Notes: generated from the sequence alone by a model not told the origin. A stretch of DNA of 64,000 nt from Gemmatimonadales bacterium (GCA_050733215.1 JBOHSN010000005.1:5322-69321), one strand, 5' to 3'. Positions 4,930 through 23,811 are shown, numbered from the stretch's first letter. Numbers and translations are program-made.

Positions 4930-5122
4930 GCTATCCGCTATCCGCTTGTTCACGCGGCCCTCCGATGTCCTTGACGTCGGGGGGCCGCGGTGCATCGTCC
5001 CGTGGATAGCGGATAGCGGATAGCGGATAGCGGATAGCGGATAGCGGATAGCGGATAGCGGATAGCGGATAGCGGATAGCGGATAGCGGATAGCGGATAG
5101 CGGATAGCGGATAGCGGATAGC
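4930..5122. repeat. tandem-repeat-armed palindrome A: 2 x GCTATCC, GC hairpin core, 17 x GGATAGC
   Basis: Left arm 4930-4943 (GCTATCC x2). Core 4954-4988 is GCGGCCCTCCGATG..CGTCGGGGGGCCGC, a 14-bp stem with G-U pairs. Right arm 5004-5122 is exactly 17 perfect GGATAGC heptamers (119 nt), ending 16 nt before the leuS ATG. Confidence 0.95.
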
Positions 5123-5137
5123 TGCTACATTTCCGCC

Positions 5138-7657
5138 ATGTCCAGCAGCCCGACTCCCGCCCGCTCCCGCCCGCTCCCGCCCGCTCCCGACCCGGGCGGT
5201 TACGATCCGACCGCCGTCGAAGCGAAATGGCAGGCCCGCTGGGCCGAGCAGCGCACCAACGAGCCCGATCTCGACGGCGCGGCGCGTCCGTTCTTCAACC
5301 TGATGATGTTCCCGTACCCCTCGGCTGAGGGCCTCCACGTCGGGAACATGTTCGCCTTCACCGGCAGCGACGCCTTCGGGCGGTTCCAGCGGCTGCGTGG
5401 TCATGACGTCTTCGAGCCGATCGGCTTCGACGCGTTCGGCATCCACAGCGAGAACTACGCGATCAAGGTCGGCATCAACCCGGCCGAGCTGATCCCGCGC
5501 AACATCGTGAACTTCCGGCGCCAGCTCGTCCGGATCGGCGGAATGTTCGACTGGTCGCACGCGCTCGCCACCACTGACCCCGCGTACTACAAGTGGACCC
5601 AGTGGATCTTCCTCCAGCTGCTGAAGGCGGGGAAGGCGTACCGAAAGGCTGCGGCGGTCAACTGGTGCCCCAGGGACCAGACCGTGCTCGCCAACGAGCA
5701 GGTCATCAACGGACGCTGCGAGCGCTGCGACACGCCGGTCGAGCAGCGGACGCTTGAGCAGTGGTTCTTCCGCATCACCGAGTACGCCGGCCGCCTGCTG
5801 GCCGACCTCGACGATCCGGCCAGGATGGACTGGTCCGACAGCACGGCCACCGCTCAGCGGAACTGGATCGGCCGGTCCGAAGGCGCCGAGATCGAGTTCA
5901 CGGTGGGCGGCGCGGAAGACCAGGCGGACGGCGCCTCCGACGAGCGGCGCATCCGCGTCTTCACCACCCGGCCGGACACGCTGTTCGGCGCCACGTTCAT
6001 GGTGCTCGCGCCCGAGCATCCGCTCCTGCTGGAGATCGTCACGCCCGAGCAACGCGCGGCCGTGCTGGCGTACCGTCAGGCCGCGCAGGCCAAGGACCTG
6101 GTCTCACGCAAGGTCGGCGACCGCGACAAGAGTGGCGTCTTCACCGGCGCGTTCGCGACCAACCCCGCCACCGGCGCGCTCATCCCCGTGTGGACCGCCG
6201 ACTACGTGCTCATGGAGTACGGCACCGGCGCCATCATGGCCGTGCCGGGCCACGACGAGCGCGACTTCGAGTTCGCGCGGAAGCACGGTCTCGAGATCGT
6301 TCGAGTGCTGGCGCCGGAGGGACAGCCGGCCAATGCGCCGCTCGAGGCCGCCGAGACCGAGACCGCCGGGTACCGGATGGTGAATTCGGGTCCGTTCAAC
6401 GGCCGGCCTGCGGATGCGGGCAAGCGCGACATCATCCGCTGGCTGGAGTCGTCAGGCCACGGCAAGGGTGTCGTGCAGTACCGGCTGCACGACTGGTGCA
6501 TCTCCCGCCAGCGGTACTGGGGCCCGCCGATCCCGATCATCTACTGCGAGCGCTGCGGCCCGGTGCCGGTCCCGGAGGAGGACCTGCCCGTACTGCTACC
6601 CGCGATCGACGACTTCCGCCCCGACGACACGGGTGTGTCGCCGCTCGCGCGGGTGAAGGAGTGGTACCACGTTGCCTGCCCGCAATGCGGCGGTCCCGCG
6701 CGCCGGGAGACCGACGTCTCCGACACGTTCCTCGACTCGGCGTGGTACTTCCTGCGCTACCCGAGCACGGACTTCGACGACCGGCCGTTCGATCCCGCGC
6801 GCACCCAGAAGTGGCTGCCGGTGGCCACGTATATCGGCGGCAACGAGCACGCCGTGCTCCACCTGCTCTACTCCCGCTTCATCACGATGGTGCTGCACGA
6901 TCTCGGCCATCTCGACTTCGACGAGCCGTACCGAACGTTTCGCGCGCACGGGCTGATCGTGAAGGACGGCGCGAAGATGTCCAAGTCGCGCGGCAACGTC
7001 GTCGTGCCCGACGACTACATCGCACGCTGGGGGGCCGACGCCTTCCGGATGTACCTGATGTTCCTGGGTCCGTTCCAGGAGGGCGGCGACTTCCGCGACG
7101 ACGGCCTCAACGGCCCGCGGCGGTTCCTCGACAAGCTGTGGGCGCTGGTGGGTCAGAGCCTGCGGGAGGATGCGGCGGGGGGTGAGATCCACCACCCCAT
7201 CCTGGTGAAGTGGCATCAGACCAGGAAGAAGGCGACGCACGACATCGAGCGGCTGAGCTACAACACCGCGATCGCCGCGCAGATGGAGCTGCTCAACACG
7301 ATGCGCGAGGCGAACTGCGCCGAGCGCGCCGTGGTCGAGGACATGGTGCTCATGGTAGCGCCGTTCGCGCCCCACTTCGCCGAGGAGTGCTGGGAGCGGC
7401 TCGGCCACGACGGCTCGATCTTCGACGGCCGCTGGCCCGAGTGGGACGAGGCGCTGACGGTGGAGGACACGGTCGAGATCGCGGTCCAGGTGAACGGCAA
7501 GACGCGGGGCAAGGTGACGGTGCGGCGGGACGCAAGCGAGGACGAGGCGGTGAAGGCGGCCAGCGCGGAACCGTCGATTCGGAAGTTCCTCGACGGGAAG
7601 ACGGTGAAGAAGGTGATCCTGGTTCCCAACCGGCTGCTCAATCTTGTGGTGCAGTGA
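5138..7657 (+). CDS. leuS: leucine--tRNA ligase
   Basis: 839-aa ORF. Motifs: YDPTAVEAKWQARW, HVGNMFAFTGSDAFGRFQRLRGHDV (HIGH-type motif), the editing domain, and GAKMSKSRGNVV (KMSKS). Confidence 0.97.
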   Translation: MSSSPTPARSRPLPPAPDPGGYDPTAVEAKWQARWAEQRTNEPDLDGAARPFFNLMMFPYPSAEGLHVGNMFAFTGSDAFGRFQRLRGHDVFEPIGFDAFGIHSENYAIKVGINPAELIPRNIVNFRRQLVRIGGMFDWSHALATTDPAYYKWTQWIFLQLLKAGKAYRKAAAVNWCPRDQTVLANEQVINGRCERCDTPVEQRTLEQWFFRITEYAGRLLADLDDPARMDWSDSTATAQRNWIGRSEGAEIEFTVGGAEDQADGASDERRIRVFTTRPDTLFGATFMVLAPEHPLLLEIVTPEQRAAVLAYRQAAQAKDLVSRKVGDRDKSGVFTGAFATNPATGALIPVWTADYVLMEYGTGAIMAVPGHDERDFEFARKHGLEIVRVLAPEGQPANAPLEAAETETAGYRMVNSGPFNGRPADAGKRDIIRWLESSGHGKGVVQYRLHDWCISRQRYWGPPIPIIYCERCGPVPVPEEDLPVLLPAIDDFRPDDTGVSPLARVKEWYHVACPQCGGPARRETDVSDTFLDSAWYFLRYPSTDFDDRPFDPARTQKWLPVATYIGGNEHAVLHLLYSRFITMVLHDLGHLDFDEPYRTFRAHGLIVKDGAKMSKSRGNVVVPDDYIARWGADAFRMYLMFLGPFQEGGDFRDDGLNGPRRFLDKLWALVGQSLREDAAGGEIHHPILVKWHQTRKKATHDIERLSYNTAIAAQMELLNTMREANCAERAVVEDMVLMVAPFAPHFAEECWERLGHDGSIFDGRWPEWDEALTVEDTVEIAVQVNGKTRGKVTVRRDASEDEAVKAASAEPSIRKFLDGKTVKKVILVPNRLLNLVVQ
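5151..5190. repeat. C-rich decamer array (CCGCTCCCGC x about 4) inside the leuS N-terminal extension
   Basis: cgactcccgc ccgctcccgc ccgctcccgc ccgctcccga. It encodes ..[15 protein letters not shown].., which lies before the conserved LeuRS core. Confidence 0.9.
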
Positions 7658-9063: not shown

Positions 9064-10179
9064 TCACAACCACCTAACCATCCATTCCCCGAGCACATAG
9101 CCCACCCCCGCTACGCCCAGCCCGACCACGAACATGTCCATGCCGCTCCGGATCACCCCGCGGCCGGTGAACGCGCTCCGGGCGGCGCCGACCGCGAAGT
9201 GCGACAGCATCGCGAGCGCGAACGCGGTCCAGATCGCCCAGCGTCCGGTGCTCACCAGGAACGGCGCGACCGGGATGAACGCGCCGAGCGCGGTGGCCGT
9301 CCCCGTGACCCACGCCTCGCGCATCGGACTGCCCGGCTCTCCCGCGATACCCAGCTCCTCCCGCGCCTGCTCGGCCAGCGCGCGGTCCGGATCCGACATC
9401 ACCTGCTCGGCGAGCGCGTGCGCCTGCGGCGGCCGGAGCCCCTTCGCCTGGTAGACCAGGCTCAGCTCCTCCCGCTCGAGCTCCGGCATCAGGCGGATCT
9501 CCTCGCGCTCCATGGACAGCTCGTGGTCCAGCACCTCCCGCTCACTCTTCGCCGCCAGGTAGCCCGAGCTTCCCATCGAGAGCGCGTCGGCCACCATCCC
9601 CGCCACGCCTGCTACGAGCACGGCGTGGCTCGCCTCGCCGAAGCCGGCCTGGGCGCCGATCATACCGGCCACGAGTCCGAAATTGGCGGTGAGGCCATCG
9701 TTGAAGCCGTAGACCACATTCCGGAGGATGCCGCCCGCCCCGTGCCGGTGCCATGGCTCGGGGCCCGCGCCGGTGATGGTGGCGAGGCGGTCGGCGTGCT
9801 GCTTCGACTCCCGCGCCAGCTGGAGGGCAGTGGGTCCCGCCGCCCCGTCGGGCTGGTCCCGGTACAGGTCCAGGTAGCCCTTCACCTCCCGACCCTCTTC
9901 CCGGAGCAGGAGCGGCAGGAGGAGCCGCCCCCCGAACCGGCGGGCGACCCAGGCTCGGAACCGGGCCCCGCCCGACGGCACCGGTTCGGGCGCGGAGTGC
10001 CCCTGCTCGGCCAGGAGCGCGCGCCAGGCGGCGACGTGCCGGTCCTCGACCCCCGCGAGCTGCCGGTAGATCTCCCGCCGGCCGGGGTCGGGCTCGACGC
10101 CGGCGAGCTCCCGGTAGAGGAAGGCGGCGTCGGCCTCATCCTGGAGGTGGTGGAGCCAGGCCGCGGGGGCGGGCGTCAT
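9064..10179 (-). CDS. VIT1/CCC1-family Fe/Mn transporter with N-terminal ferritin-like (rubrerythrin-type) domain
   Basis: 371-aa ORF. N-terminal EADAAFLYRELAG..EDRHVAAW, then LRNVVYGFNDGLTANFGLVAGMIGA and C-terminal TM helices typical of the VIT family. Confidence 0.85.
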   Translation of the reverse strand: MTPAPAAWLHHLQDEADAAFLYRELAGVEPDPGRREIYRQLAGVEDRHVAAWRALLAEQGHSAPEPVPSGGARFRAWVARRFGGRLLLPLLLREEGREVKGYLDLYRDQPDGAAGPTALQLARESKQHADRLATITGAGPEPWHRHGAGGILRNVVYGFNDGLTANFGLVAGMIGAQAGFGEASHAVLVAGVAGMVADALSMGSSGYLAAKSEREVLDHELSMEREEIRLMPELEREELSLVYQAKGLRPPQAHALAEQVMSDPDRALAEQAREELGIAGEPGSPMREAWVTGTATALGAFIPVAPFLVSTGRWAIWTAFALAMLSHFAVGAARSAFTGRGVIRSGMDMFVVGLGVAGVGYVLGEWMVRWL

Positions 10180-10191
10180 GCCTCGAAGTAT

Positions 10192-10287
10192 AGAAGAGCA
10201 GAAGAGCGGAAGAGCAGAAGAGCCGCTGGACGGCCCCGTGGAAGCGGTTCCATCCGCTCTTCGGCTCTTCCGCTCTTCTGCTCTTCC
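10192..10287. repeat. tandem-repeat-armed palindrome D: 4 x AGAAGAGC, core, 4 x GCTCTTCN (octamers)
   Basis: Left arm 10192-10223 (agaagagc agaagagc ggaagagc agaagagc). 32-nt core containing GGAAGCGGTTCC. Right arm 10256-10287 (gctcttcg gctcttcc gctcttct gctcttcc). It lies between divergent starts (VIT 10179, ECF sigma 10332). Confidence 0.95.
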
Positions 10288-10331
10288 AGGATTTGCGACT
10301 CTCCGTCCGCCCCCCGCATCTTTAACCCGTC

Positions 10332-10886
10332 ATGACACGTACGCTCTCCATGGACTCGTTTCTGCTCGCCGATGCCCGGAGCGTCGTCGCCCAGGCCAAG
10401 GCGGGCGACCCCGCCGGCTTCGAGGCCCTGTACCGCGCGTTTGAAGCCCCCGTCTACAACCTGTCCCGCCGGATCTGCCGCACCGCGGAGGATGCCGAGG
10501 ACGTGCTCCAGGAGACCTTCCTCGAGGTTTGCCGGAGCATCGGGCAGTACCGGGAGGACGGCAGCCTCTGGGGCTGGGTTCGCACCATCGCCGCGAGCAA
10601 AGCGCTCATGCGGCTCCGCCGAAACAAGTATCGGGATACCGACGAGTTGCACGACGAGGTCGTGGGCCGGGTGCGGGATGATTACCACCTCCGGATGGAC
10701 CTCGAGGCCGCGCTCGAGCGGCTGCCCGAGGTGTCCCGGGCCGTGGTCTGGCTCCATGATGTCGAGGGATATACCCACGAGGAAATCGCCGGCATGATGG
10801 GCAAGACCACGAGCTTCTCCAAGTCCCAGCTCGCCCGGGCGCACGGACGGCTGCGCCGGTGGTTGGGGGAGGAGTCCGTCGCATGA
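10332..10886 (+). CDS. ECF-type RNA polymerase sigma-70 family factor
   Basis: 184-aa ORF. Region 2: AEDAEDVLQETFLEVCRSIGQYREDGSLWGWVRTIAASKALMRLRR. Region 4: VVWLHDVEGYTHEEIAGMMGKTTSFSKSQLARA. The start could instead be ATG 10350. Confidence 0.9.
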   Translation: MTRTLSMDSFLLADARSVVAQAKAGDPAGFEALYRAFEAPVYNLSRRICRTAEDAEDVLQETFLEVCRSIGQYREDGSLWGWVRTIAASKALMRLRRNKYRDTDELHDEVVGRVRDDYHLRMDLEAALERLPEVSRAVVWLHDVEGYTHEEIAGMMGKTTSFSKSQLARAHGRLRRWLGEESVA

Positions 10887-11494
10887 CGCATCTCACCATG
10901 GACCAGCTGATCGCGCTCCGGGAGCCGGGCCTCGAGCCGGGCGATCAGGCGGCTCGTAATCACCTCGACGCCTGCGAGTCGTGCCGAGACGAGTTGGATC
11001 GGCTGCACCAGCGGGTGGCACGGCTCAAGGCGCTTCCCACTCTCCGCCCGTCGCGCGACCGATGGCCCGCCGTGCAGGCGCAGCTCGCGGCTGAGCGGCG
11101 GGCCTACCGGCTCCACCGGGCCCGCCGTATCTCCTTTGCCGGACTGGTCGCCGCCGCCTCGATCGCCGTCGCGGCGTCGCTCGGCGGGGTCAAGGGACCC
11201 AAGCCCGCGGTCGCGACGACGGAGATTTCGCGCGCGATGGAGCGCTCGCGCGCACTCGAGGAGGCGATCGACTTCTACAACCCGGACGCCCGCGTGCTCG
11301 ACGGCCGTACGGCACGGGTGGCGCAGGAGATCGAGGACCGGATCGCGGCGCTCGACCAGGAGCTGGAGTTGCTGGACGTCACCCCCGACGCGTCACGCGA
11401 GAACCGGCAGCTGCAGCTCTGGCGGGAGCGGGTGGGATTGCTGGACGCGCTGGTGGACGTCCACGTCACCCGCGCCAGCAACGTGGGGCTCTGA
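10883..11494 (+). CDS. anti-sigma factor (zf-HC2 type) with one TM helix
   Basis: Frame of ORF 10859..11494. ATG 10883 overlaps the sigma stop (ATGA). N-terminal HLDACESCRDELDRLH zinc-finger-like motif. TM helix ISFAGLVAAASIAVAASLG. Confidence 0.8.
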   Translation: MTHLTMDQLIALREPGLEPGDQAARNHLDACESCRDELDRLHQRVARLKALPTLRPSRDRWPAVQAQLAAERRAYRLHRARRISFAGLVAAASIAVAASLGGVKGPKPAVATTEISRAMERSRALEEAIDFYNPDARVLDGRTARVAQEIEDRIAALDQELELLDVTPDASRENRQLQLWRERVGLLDALVDVHVTRASNVGL

Positions 11495-23753: not shown

Positions 23754-23811
23754 GTGTCTACTCCGATGCGTGCCGGGGAACTTTCGTCGCAGCCGCGGAC
23801 GAACAGCTTTG

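What the first reader, a model, noticed from the sequence alone, without database searches (positions are those of the whole stretch)
10192..10287. The same architecture in a divergent promoter region (4 + 4 AGAAGAGC octamers), so it is not only a terminator
This purine-rich octamer palindrome sits between the divergent start codons of the VIT1 iron/manganese transporter (10179) and an ECF sigma factor (10332). No transcript should end here, so a pure terminator role fails for this copy. It could be an operator-like or cruciform-forming element. It could instead form a 5'-UTR hairpin in one or both mRNAs. The left arm starts only 13 nt from the VIT start codon.
Basis: partly seen in the sequence, partly recalled or inferred. 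Interest (0 to 1): 0.6.

Follow-up and report, generated by a model that had tools for sequence, protein, structure and literature searches.

The report
Repeat hairpin between two leaderless promoters
A 96-base DNA hairpin made of an 8-base repeat and its mirror image sits exactly between the minimal promoters of two back-to-back genes in a soil Gemmatimonadales bacterium; it is most likely an untranscribed, cargo-less copy of a genome-wide repeat family, not a terminator, an operator or an mRNA leader.

Summary
Positions 10192-10287 carry four NGAAGAGC octamers, a 32-nt core and four reverse-complement octamers (about 30 bp of stem; DNA fold -43.8 kcal/mol, z -7.3).

In 24 related genomes the same divergent gene pair keeps two footprints. 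One is an ECF-type promoter, TGCGAC-N16-GCATC, ending 11 nt before the sigma ATG. The other is a TAnnnT -10 box (TATACT here) 5-7 nt before the VIT ATG. Both genes therefore look leaderless, and the element fills exactly the gap between the VIT -10 and the sigma -35.

- Some relatives have a bare 66-67-nt spacer.
- Others hold arrays of different units in the same slot.
- Two hairpins have decayed while both promoters stayed intact.

Genome-wide I found 256 such elements. They hug stop codons and are 4-6-fold depleted in divergent gaps.

The octamer family is restricted to one sub-clade. Its one cargo-bearing copy carries a PF05635 (rRNA intervening-sequence protein) gene. All 24 PF05635 hits examined in four genomes have flanking arrays.

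My reading is a tolerated passenger. A cruciform or protein-platform role is not excluded. No RNA data could be obtained.

The parts
9064..10179 (-). VIT1-family (MbfA-like, with an N-terminal ferritin-like part) metal transporter gene; ATG at 10179-10177
   Evidence: PF01988 E 5e-56. It is the only start codon in the open frame. Orthologues in 53 of 61 relatives align from residues 1-8.
10187..10192 (-). Inferred sigma-70-type -10 box TATACT of a leaderless VIT mRNA, 7 nt before the ATG; its first T is the complement of the first base of the left arm
   Evidence: It is the only TANNNT on either strand between 9664 and 10340. A TAnnnT box lies 5-7 nt before the VIT ATG in about 22 of 24 relatives. 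Genome-wide, TANNNT peaks 5-7 nt before start codons. No TSS data.
10192..10223 (.). Left (purine-rich) arm: 4 x NGAAGAGC
10224..10255 (.). 32-nt core. Its ends (CGCTGGAC ... GTTCCATCC) look like degenerate GATGGAC-type octamers, the unit type found in this slot in G012 and G010. It has an internal small stem with a GGAA loop.
10256..10287 (.). Right (pyrimidine-rich) arm: 4 x GCTCTTCN, complementary to the left arm
10292..10299 (+). -35 element TTTGCGAC of the ECF sigma gene's own promoter, 4 nt after the right arm
   Evidence: TGC[GA]AC is invariant in 23 of 24 relatives while the 16-nt spacer varies
10316..10323 (+). -10 element GCATCTTT of the ECF-type promoter; GCATC ends 11 nt before the ATG, with no Shine-Dalgarno sequence
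   Evidence: GCATC is invariant, with fixed 16-nt spacing to the -35 and 11-13 nt to the start codon in relatives
10332..10886 (+). ECF sigma factor gene
   Evidence: Sigma70_r2 E 5e-15, Sigma70_r4_2 E 2e-12. It is the conserved divergent neighbour of the VIT gene in 24 of 30 loci.
10883..11494 (+). Probable anti-sigma factor (HxxxCxxC-like motif LDACESCRDEL), overlapping the sigma stop codon by 4 nt
   Evidence: ORF list. No Pfam hit. The assignment rests on position and motif only.

Best explanation
The element is a short, cargo-less member of a lineage-specific octamer family (NGAAGAGC, a variant of NGATGRNC). That family is one of about 50 unit families of repeat-armed hairpin elements, with 256 loci in this genome.

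It occupies the only unconstrained DNA of a compact bidirectional control region. On one side, the VIT gene is transcribed as a leaderless mRNA from a -10-only promoter (TATACT, 7 nt before the ATG). On the other side, the ECF sigma gene is transcribed from its own autoregulated ECF-type promoter (TGCGAC-N16-GCATC, 11 nt before the ATG). The arms reach exactly from the VIT -10 box to 4 nt before the sigma -35.

The element is therefore most likely not part of either transcript. It is not a terminator, an mRNA leader or a sequence-specific operator.

It is tolerated here because neither promoter needs the DNA it replaced. Its likely effects are side effects:
- it supplies the sequence upstream of the VIT -10;
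- it moves the two promoters about 85 bp further apart than in the bare 66-67-nt version.

Its hairpin symmetry is kept by DNA-level processes (slippage, arm-to-arm or copy-to-copy conversion), not by selection on an RNA structure.

What is shown: anatomy, family membership, conserved promoter footprints, turnover in relatives, genome-wide distribution. What is inferred: the transcription start sites, non-transcription of the element, and the absence of a dedicated function.
For: Anatomy and fold.

Sigma promoter. TGC[GA]AC-N16-GCATC-N11-ATG is conserved in 23 of 24 relatives while the spacer varies.

VIT -10.
- A TAnnnT box lies 5-7 nt before the ATG in about 22 of 24 relatives.
- It is the only TANNNT in the spacer on either strand; the motif is rare in the window, 127 sites on both strands.
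- Genome-wide, TANNNT peaks 5-7 nt before start codons: 2.7% at 6 nt against about 0.3% background.

Recurrent layout. Of 32 elements whose arm ends 10-16 nt from an outward-facing start codon, 14 have such a -10 box flush with the arm.

Dispensability and turnover.
- The spacer is only 66-67 nt with no array in G001, G002 and G022; G010 (67 nt) keeps just one GGATGGCC unit and its near-complement.
- The same octamer occurs as 3+2 copies in G005.
- GATGGAC occurs as 3+2 copies in G012.
- GTGAACG heptamer arrays occur in a 9-species clade, and the hairpin has decayed in G016 and G007 with both promoters intact.

Family.
- About 17 paired octamer copies occur in this genome, all with the purine arm first. 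Polarity is fixed in every family, for example 55/55, 28/28 and 17/17.
- The three-unit GAAGAGC pattern occurs in G000 (45 matches) and G005 (207), with stray matches in G012 (1) and G041 (3), and is absent from the other 57 relatives.

Distribution.
- Elements start a median of 1 nt after a stop codon.
- Only 16 of 222 intergenic copies (7.2%) lie in divergent gaps, which hold 27% of intergenic DNA (binomial P 1e-13).
- Xanthomonas heptamer arrays show the same 7-8% (PMC4692102).

Hairpin quality. Divergent copies fold no worse than the others: -0.362 against about -0.38 kcal/mol per nt, P 0.40.
Against: - Both start sites are inferred from conservation only.
- No recognisable -35 accompanies the VIT -10, and the consensus scan finds no complete sigma-70 promoter.
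- G010, a close relative, has a poor -10 (CCACTT) at the homologous place.
- An array has stayed in this slot through several speciations in two clades. The strong depletion of such elements in divergent gaps shows that they usually matter there. A retained copy could therefore be useful and not merely tolerated.
- Gene context genome-wide comes from my own crude gene caller. Three or four of the 16 'divergent' copies sit in gaps of 700-1400 nt that may hide uncalled genes.
Confidence: 0.6

Rival explanations
1. DNA-level structural switch. Negative supercoils generated between the two divergent promoters extrude the inverted repeat as a cruciform. The cruciform absorbs about 9 turns and uncouples the two promoters. 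Alternatively it occludes the VIT -10 and sigma -35, which lie at the base of the stem, making both genes sensitive to supercoiling.
For: - A 30-bp GC-rich stem has its base touching the VIT -10 and lying 4 nt from the sigma -35.
- In G012 the slot's hairpin closes on a 6-nt loop, which favours extrusion.
- A repressive cruciform in an intergenic promoter region is documented for Vibrio exsBA (PMC10325908).
- Hairpin potential is kept in most array-bearing relatives even though the unit differs.
Against: - The 32-nt core makes extrusion kinetically unfavourable (established knowledge on cruciform kinetics; not tested here).
- Several relatives do without any hairpin, and two have let it decay with both promoters conserved.
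- The same architecture occurs at 240 other loci that are not between promoters.
Confidence: 0.15
2. Protein platform. The arms are binding sites for a family-specific protein, and occupancy here modulates the two promoters. The obvious candidate is the PF05635 four-helix-bundle protein encoded inside the one cargo-bearing octamer element (G000 C12:20577-21146).
For: - All 24 PF05635 hits in G000, G005, G010 and G012 have flanking tandem arrays, nearly all as unit / reverse-complement pairs about 500 nt apart.
- PF05635 paralogue clades match unit families.
- The dispersed short copies in each genome carry the unit type of that genome's cassette.
Against: - No DNA-binding activity is known for PF05635, and nothing here tests binding.
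- The association could arise from cassettes inserting into pre-existing hairpins, or from vertical co-inheritance: three octamer cassettes lie at orthologous loci.
- Relatives regulate the same gene pair without any array.
Confidence: 0.1
3. Transcribed leader. A second, unrecognised promoter beyond the element produces a long VIT (or sigma) mRNA whose 5'-UTR contains the hairpin, which stabilises or regulates that mRNA.
For: - The hairpin would be very stable as RNA, and the core closes on a GGAA (GNRA-type) loop.
- About 38 elements genome-wide end fewer than 5 nt from a start codon. That leaves no room for a promoter, so some family members must be in leaders.
Against: - There is no other TANNNT on either strand in the spacer.
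- The far side of the element, seen from VIT, is fully occupied by the conserved sigma promoter.
- No Shine-Dalgarno sequence precedes either ATG, and the 7-nt (VIT) and 11-nt (sigma) distances to the -10 boxes are those of leaderless genes.
Confidence: 0.08
4. Boundary or insulator terminator. The element stops stray antisense or read-through polymerases from crossing from one gene's upstream region into the other gene.
For: Family members hug stop codons (median 1 nt) and are most frequent in convergent gaps, 0.87 per kb.
Against: - Both neighbours point away, so nothing reads towards the element.
- There is no T-tract, and no terminator-like site in the scan.
Confidence: 0.04

Closest known systems
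Convergent (inverted) GGGAATC heptamer arrays of Xanthomonas, and GGGGAYT arrays of Nostoc (Rehm et al. 2015, PMC4692102)
   Same: - Tandem 6-10-nt units of 3 or more copies paired with their reverse complement.
- Dispersed between genes and close to stop and start codons.
- Under-represented between divergent ORFs: 7-8% there, 7.2% here.
- Fast turnover between related genomes.
- Function unproven.
- One Xanthomonas array abuts a PF05635 gene: XCC0516, PDB 2GSC.
   Different: - About 50 different unit families in one genome, not one.
- This unit is purine-rich but cannot form a G-quadruplex.
- Polarity is strictly fixed in every family.
- The authors did not connect the arrays with PF05635.
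REP / BIME / REPIN elements with their RAYT transposase
   Same: - Dispersed extragenic palindromes, mostly at gene 3' ends.
- Lineage-specific families.
- A 'gene flanked by its own cognate repeats' layout. Here that gene is PF05635.
   Different: - The arms are tandem arrays of a short unit, not one conserved 20-40-nt palindrome.
- The only Y1-transposase gene in the genome (C157:3444-3785) has no such arrays beside it.
23S rRNA intervening sequences carrying an S23p (PF05635) ORF, e.g. Coxiella burnetii (PMC4990558)
   Same: In both, a roughly 400-500-nt selfish cassette with a PF05635 ORF is bounded by complementary sequences that form a long stem. The octamer family's one cargo-bearing copy has this layout.
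   Different: - These cassettes lie between protein genes, not in rRNA.
- Their stems are tandem-repeat arrays.
- The element in the finding has no ORF.
Simple-sequence repeats in combined divergent promoters, e.g. the TA repeats between hifA and hifB of Haemophilus influenzae (van Ham et al. 1993, as cited in PMC4692102)
   Same: A repeat tract lies inside a shared divergent promoter region, and copy number differs between close relatives (4+4 against 3+2).
   Different: Here the tract lies outside the -35/-10 spacer of the sigma promoter and upstream of a -10-only VIT promoter. Gaining or losing units does not change promoter geometry, so there is no evidence for phase variation.
Repressive cruciform in the Vibrio parahaemolyticus exsBA intergenic region, attenuated by HlyU (PMC10325908)
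   Same: An inverted repeat in an intergenic control region that overlaps promoter elements.
   Different: There the cruciform and its regulator were demonstrated experimentally. Here nothing beyond sequence potential is known, and relatives lack the repeat.

Membership tests
Intrinsic (Rho-independent) terminator | GC-rich stem-loop followed by a T-tract, downstream of a gene's 3' end | tested here: not met
   Both neighbours start here. The scan finds 0 terminator-like sites in 10000-10500. The right arm is followed by AGGATTTGCG.
Inverted short-unit tandem arrays (Xanthomonas GGGAATC type, PMC4692102) | At least 3-4 tandem copies of a 6-10-nt unit paired with a nearby array of the reverse complement | tested here: met
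   4.0 + 4.4 copies, period 8, 32 nt apart
Inverted short-unit tandem arrays (Xanthomonas GGGAATC type, PMC4692102) | Dispersed multi-copy family, mainly intergenic and rare between divergent ORFs | tested here: met
   About 17 paired octamer copies and 256 elements of all units. 7.2% are divergent, against 7-8% in Xanthomonas.
Inverted short-unit tandem arrays (Xanthomonas GGGAATC type, PMC4692102) | G-tracts able to form a G-quadruplex | tested here: not met
   The unit NGAAGAGC has no GGG run
REP/REPIN-RAYT system | A Y1-transposase (RAYT, PF01797) gene flanked by the repeats | tested here: not met
   There is one PF01797 gene (C157:3444-3785), with no matching arrays within about 1 kb
MITE | Terminal inverted repeats plus a target-site duplication | tested here: not met
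   The flanks ...CGAAGTAT | AGGATTTG... show no duplication. Flanks of other family copies share no motif.
Sequence-specific operator of the VIT / ECF-sigma pair | The site is conserved in orthologous control regions | tested here: not met
   The slot is bare or nearly so in G001, G002, G010 and G022, and holds heptamers or other octamers elsewhere
Phase-variable promoter SSR | The repeat lies between the -35 and -10, or between an activator site and the promoter, so that unit number sets promoter geometry | tested here: not met
   The arrays lie outside the sigma -35/-10 spacer and upstream of the VIT -10
Cruciform-regulated promoter | Extrusion in supercoiled DNA and an effect on transcription | not testable with these tools
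   Only folding potential is available
IVS-like PF05635 cassette | A PF05635 ORF between complementary arms | tested here: not met
   The core is 32 nt with no ORF. The same-family cassette with the ORF is at C12:20577-21146.
Known RNA families (Rfam 15) | A match at or above the gathering score | tested here: not met
   There are only sub-threshold generic-hairpin hits to eukaryotic miRNA precursors, the best at 36.5 bits against a threshold of 60.4

The most novel reading that the evidence does not exclude
The repeat-armed hairpins of Gemmatimonadales, and perhaps the Xanthomonas heptamer arrays, may be the cognate DNA or RNA sites of PF05635 four-helix-bundle proteins (rRNA 'intervening-sequence protein', Avd-like). 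The relation would resemble that of REPs to RAYTs.

- Each paralogue sits in a roughly 500-nt cassette bounded by its own unit family.
- The short, cargo-less copies spread or are rewritten genome-wide in step with that cassette. In the VIT/sigma slot the unit changed from GATGGMC (G010, G012) to GAAGAGC (G000, G005), together with the genome-wide family and the cassette arms.
- On this reading, the copy studied here is a PF05635-addressable site planted in a bidirectional promoter.
Probability: 0.2. Interest if true: 0.8.

Novelty: new variant of a known kind. Interest (0 to 1): 0.5.

Why it matters
1. This copy works as a natural control for the whole class. It is as good a hairpin as the copies behind genes, yet it lies upstream of both transcription starts. 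The symmetry of these elements therefore does not depend on being transcribed, which argues against 'they are just terminators'.

2. The element's edges map the functional limits of two promoters. That points to a -10-only leaderless promoter type and an ECF autoregulatory promoter in an uncultured, poorly studied phylum.

3. Following the octamer family led to a complete association of PF05635 genes with such arrays. It also led to a matching case in the Xanthomonas data. Together these give a testable candidate partner for a repeat class whose origin and function have been open since 2015.

Tried and rejected
- Population variants: exact 17-mer scans (AAGTATAGAAGAGCAGA) of metagenome contigs and genome contigs gave only chance hits in low-GC organisms, plus the G005 contig already held.
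- ECF-like motif inside the core (minus strand TGGAAC-N14-CGTC): rejected. Its spacing and -10 differ from the gene's own conserved TGCGAC-N16-GCATC. The GGATGGAAC word is simply a degenerate family unit, and it lies on the other arm in G005.
- Sigma-70 -35/-10 consensus scan: no hit.
- Rfam: only sub-threshold miRNA-hairpin noise.
- RAYT-type mobilisation: the single Y1 transposase gene is not flanked by arrays.
- 'Newer units outside, older units inside' as a strict rule: this copy and several others fit, but C33 and C60 have mixed orders. I do not claim it.
- Core inversion between G000 and G005 in this slot: the reverse alignment is better by my own hand alignment of the sequences (11/12 and 5/7 against 5/8 and 6/10). 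The core ends are themselves inverted repeats, so this is only suggestive.
- Literature on leaderless mRNAs in Gemmatimonadetes: nothing direct was found.

Full report
**1. The observation**

The sequence is as described.
- Four octamers, AGAAGAGC AGAAGAGC GGAAGAGC AGAAGAGC, at 10192-10223.
- A 32-nt core at 10224-10255.
- Four reverse-complement octamers, GCTCTTCG GCTCTTCC GCTCTTCT GCTCTTCC, at 10256-10287.

The heptamer GAAGAGC is identical in all eight units. The two-unit pattern (up to 2 mismatches) occurs 7 times in the window against 0.66 expected, six of them here. TRF reports period 8 with 4.0 and 4.4 copies.

As single-stranded DNA the 152-nt spacer folds into a 23 + 7-bp stem with one mismatch. 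The energy is -43.8 kcal/mol against -23.1 +/- 2.8 for shuffles, z -7.3.

The neighbours are:
- a VIT1-family transporter gene, 9064-10179 on the minus strand (PF01988, E 5e-56);
- an ECF sigma factor gene, 10332-10886 on the plus strand;
- downstream of the sigma gene, a probable anti-sigma gene and a PDZ protein gene.

The window is C5:5322-69321 of a 3.97-Mb, 69.6% G+C draft genome. Its closest relative, G005, bears the record title 'Gemmatimonadales bacterium'.

**2. What flanks the element: two minimal promoters**

The VIT / ECF-sigma divergent pair is conserved in 24 of the 30 relatives' loci fetched.

I lined up the spacers and found two phylogenetic footprints.

Sigma side. TGC[GA]AC, then 16 variable bases, then GCATC, then 11-13 bases to the start codon. 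This is present in 23 of 24 loci. The sequence and spacing are those of an ECF-type promoter (AAC-containing -35, CGTC/CATC-like -10; known from B. subtilis sigma-M/W/X promoters, from memory). Autoregulation of ECF sigma genes is the rule. In the window the -35 is 10294-10299 and GCATC is 10316-10320. No Shine-Dalgarno sequence follows.

VIT side. About 22 of 24 loci have a TAnnnT box (TATACT, TATTAT, TATAAT, TAAGTT, TACCTT and others) 5-7 nt before the ATG, again with no Shine-Dalgarno sequence.
- In the window this is TATACT at 10187-10192 (-).
- It is the only TANNNT on either strand between 9664 and 10340. The motif is rare here: 127 sites in 64 kb on both strands.
- Genome-wide, TANNNT peaks sharply 5-7 nt upstream of start codons. 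It reaches 2.7% at 6 nt against about 0.3% background, for genes with an upstream gap of at least 60 nt. That is the signature of leaderless genes with -10-only promoters.

The element therefore reaches from the VIT -10 box, sharing one base with it, to 4 nt before the T-rich edge of the sigma -35. Both inferred start sites lie between the element and the genes.

**3. The slot in relatives**

A tree of the two proteins and the spacer sequences show three situations within the genus.
- G001 and G002 have no array, with a 66-67-nt spacer in which the two promoters stand back to back. G011 (about 94 nt) and G022 (a neighbouring genus, 67 nt) also lack an array.
- The clade of this genome carries octamers: 4+4 GAAGAGC here; 3+2 GAAGAGC in G005 (92% protein identity); 3+2 GATGGAC with a 6-nt loop in G012; and in G010 a single GGATGGCC followed by GGCCACCC, one unit and its near-complement.
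- A nine-species clade carries GTGAACG heptamers at 2+2 to 4+4 copies, with unrelated cores. In G016 and G007 the hairpin has decayed (z +0.5), and in G009 it is weak (z -1.6), while both promoter footprints remain.

So the array is dispensable, changes unit and copy number, and can decay. The two promoters do not.

**4. The family**

TRF plus pairing finds 256 inverted-array loci in the genome, falling into 51 canonical units.

I used a simple codon-bias gene caller of my own: 3686 genes, 88% coding. By its calls:
- 156 elements lie between same-direction genes, 50 between convergent genes, 16 between divergent genes, 26 inside genes, and 8 at contig ends;
- per kb of intergenic DNA the densities are 0.60, 0.87 and 0.14;
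- the divergent share, 7.2%, compares with 27% of intergenic DNA (binomial P 1e-13). Rehm et al. reported the same 7-8% for Xanthomonas heptamer arrays (PMC4692102).

Elements begin a median of 1 nt after the upstream stop codon (interquartile range -2 to 8). They end a median of 23 nt before the next start.

Of the 32 elements whose arm ends 10-16 nt from an outward-facing start codon, 14 have a TANNNT box 5-8 nt before that start, flush with the arm, as at the VIT gene. In the window, the 17-unit GGATAGC array ending at 5122 is followed by TACATT (5126-5131) and an ATG at 5138.

In other words, the arrays fill the spacers up to the nearest constrained sequence.

Polarity is fixed in every family: 55/55, 28/28, 17/17 and so on. 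All octamer copies have the purine arm first.

Divergent copies are as good hairpins as the rest: -0.362 against about -0.38 kcal/mol per nt, P 0.40. Both arms were required for detection, which biases this comparison.

**5. The octamer family and its cargo-bearing copy**

About 17 paired NGA[A/G/T]GAGC elements occur in this genome. Nearly all have the inner boundaries NGATG ... CATCN.

Distribution among relatives:
- Three consecutive GAAGAGC units occur 45 times here and 207 times in G005, with stray matches in G012 (1) and G041 (3) and none in the other 57 relatives, including G010.
- The broader NGA[A/G/T]G[A/G]NC pattern occurs in G000, G005, G010 (GATGGCC type only) and G012, and in none of seven other genus members.

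I tested this.
- The genome has seven PF05635 hits, and all seven have flanking tandem arrays about 430-500 nt apart.
- One of them, C12:20577-21146, has arms of the same octamer family and the same GATG/CATC inner boundaries.
- In G005, G010 and G012 all 17 further hits are flanked in the same way. These include octamer cassettes with GAGGAGC arms (G005), GGATGGCC arms (G010) and CAGACGGC arms (G012).
- A tree of the proteins groups them by unit family: support 0.94 for the G000+G005+G010 octamer group (G012 joins with low support), and 0.96-1.0 for three other clades.
- The three octamer-family ORFs have plausible starts and no stop codons.
- The G000, G005 and G010 octamer cassettes lie at orthologous loci. 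The GGCGGGAGAG cassettes lie at different loci in G000 and G005. The hexamer cassette is inverted relative to its flanks between G000 and G005.
- No other gene type was found enclosed by a matched pair at this spacing.
- The only Y1-transposase gene is not flanked by arrays.

The closest solved structure to these proteins is 2GSC, XCC0516 of Xanthomonas campestris, at E 3e-16. In the supplementary table of Rehm et al., GGGAATC repeat no. 15 overlaps the start codon of XCC0516.

**6. How this copy most likely works**

My reading, at about 0.6, is as follows.
- It is a cargo-less family member that entered, or grew in, the free DNA between two compact promoters. This happened in the common ancestor of G000, G005, G010 and G012.
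- It has since been remodelled, with the unit changing from GATGGMC to GAAGAGC. Relics of the older unit remain at the ends of the core.
- It is not transcribed and has no sequence-specific regulatory role.

It is tolerated for two reasons. The VIT promoter needs only its -10 box, as in other high-G+C bacteria with many leaderless genes (mycobacteria; from memory). The ECF promoter needs nothing beyond its -35.

Its side effects are a new sequence upstream of the VIT -10 and about 85 bp of extra distance between the promoters.

Rivals, set out in their own section:
- a supercoil-driven cruciform (0.15);
- a protein platform, with PF05635 as candidate (0.10);
- a transcribed leader from an unseen promoter (0.08);
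- an insulator or terminator (0.04).

**7. Comparison and novelty**

As a kind, inverted short-unit tandem arrays were described in Xanthomonas and Nostoc, and this element matches that architecture and distribution.

It fails the defining tests for an intrinsic terminator, a REP/RAYT element, a MITE, an operator and a phase-variable promoter repeat.

What is new here:
- the precise placement between two inferred leaderless promoters;
- the turnover of units within one orthologous slot, in step with the genome-wide family;
- confirmation in four genomes, plus a hint in Xanthomonas, that PF05635 genes sit inside such elements.

The copy itself is of moderate interest. The class-level lead is the more interesting part.

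Noticed in passing
G000 contigs outside the window: C12:20577-21146, C67:9800-10385, C130:2503-3071, C82:12123-12639, C110:10668-11285, C109:4355-4864, C3:17056-17597. Also loci L254-L270 in G005, G010 and G012.: Every PF05635 (23S rRNA intervening-sequence protein / Avd-like) hit (24 of 24 in four genomes) lies in a roughly 500-nt core between tandem arrays. Nearly all of these arrays form unit / reverse-complement pairs. Paralogue clades match unit families.
   Followed up: partly
Supplementary table of PMC4692102 (Xcc repeat no. 15, 622956-622983) and PDB 2GSC: The nearest solved structure to these PF05635 proteins is Xanthomonas campestris XCC0516. The paper's own table shows that its start codon is overlapped by a GGGAATC heptamer array. 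The authors did not comment on this.
   Followed up: partly
L248 (G000 C67) against L260 (G005 C227): The PF05635 core is inverted relative to homologous flanks between the two genomes. This is a flip between the inverted arrays. The unit also differs: AGTGTG against TGCTAG.
   Followed up: no
L247 (G000 C3:15694-19005) against L254 (G005 C212): These are 98.7% identical over 2.7 kb, against 83-87% at other orthologous loci of the same two genomes. That suggests recent transfer or cross-binning (G005 is listed with 8% contamination).
   Followed up: no
window 5004-5140: A 17-unit GGATAGC array ends at 5122, followed by TACATT (5126-5131) and an ATG at 5138. This is a second case in the window of an arm flush with a leaderless-type -10 box.
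   Followed up: partly
window 23765-23791 (-): A second exact match to the sigma gene's promoter pattern (TGCGAC-N16-GCATC) lies 12 nt before a called start codon. It may be another target of this ECF sigma.
   Followed up: no
whole window: TANNNT is under-represented: 127 sites against 208 +/- 14 in dinucleotide shuffles. This fits selection against spurious -10 boxes in a genome that uses -10-only promoters.
   Followed up: no
window 10224-10255 against the G005 slot (L002): The 9-nt variant unit GATGGAAC lies on the right inner edge here and on the left inner edge in G005. This suggests, but does not prove, a flip of the core between the two genomes.
   Followed up: partly
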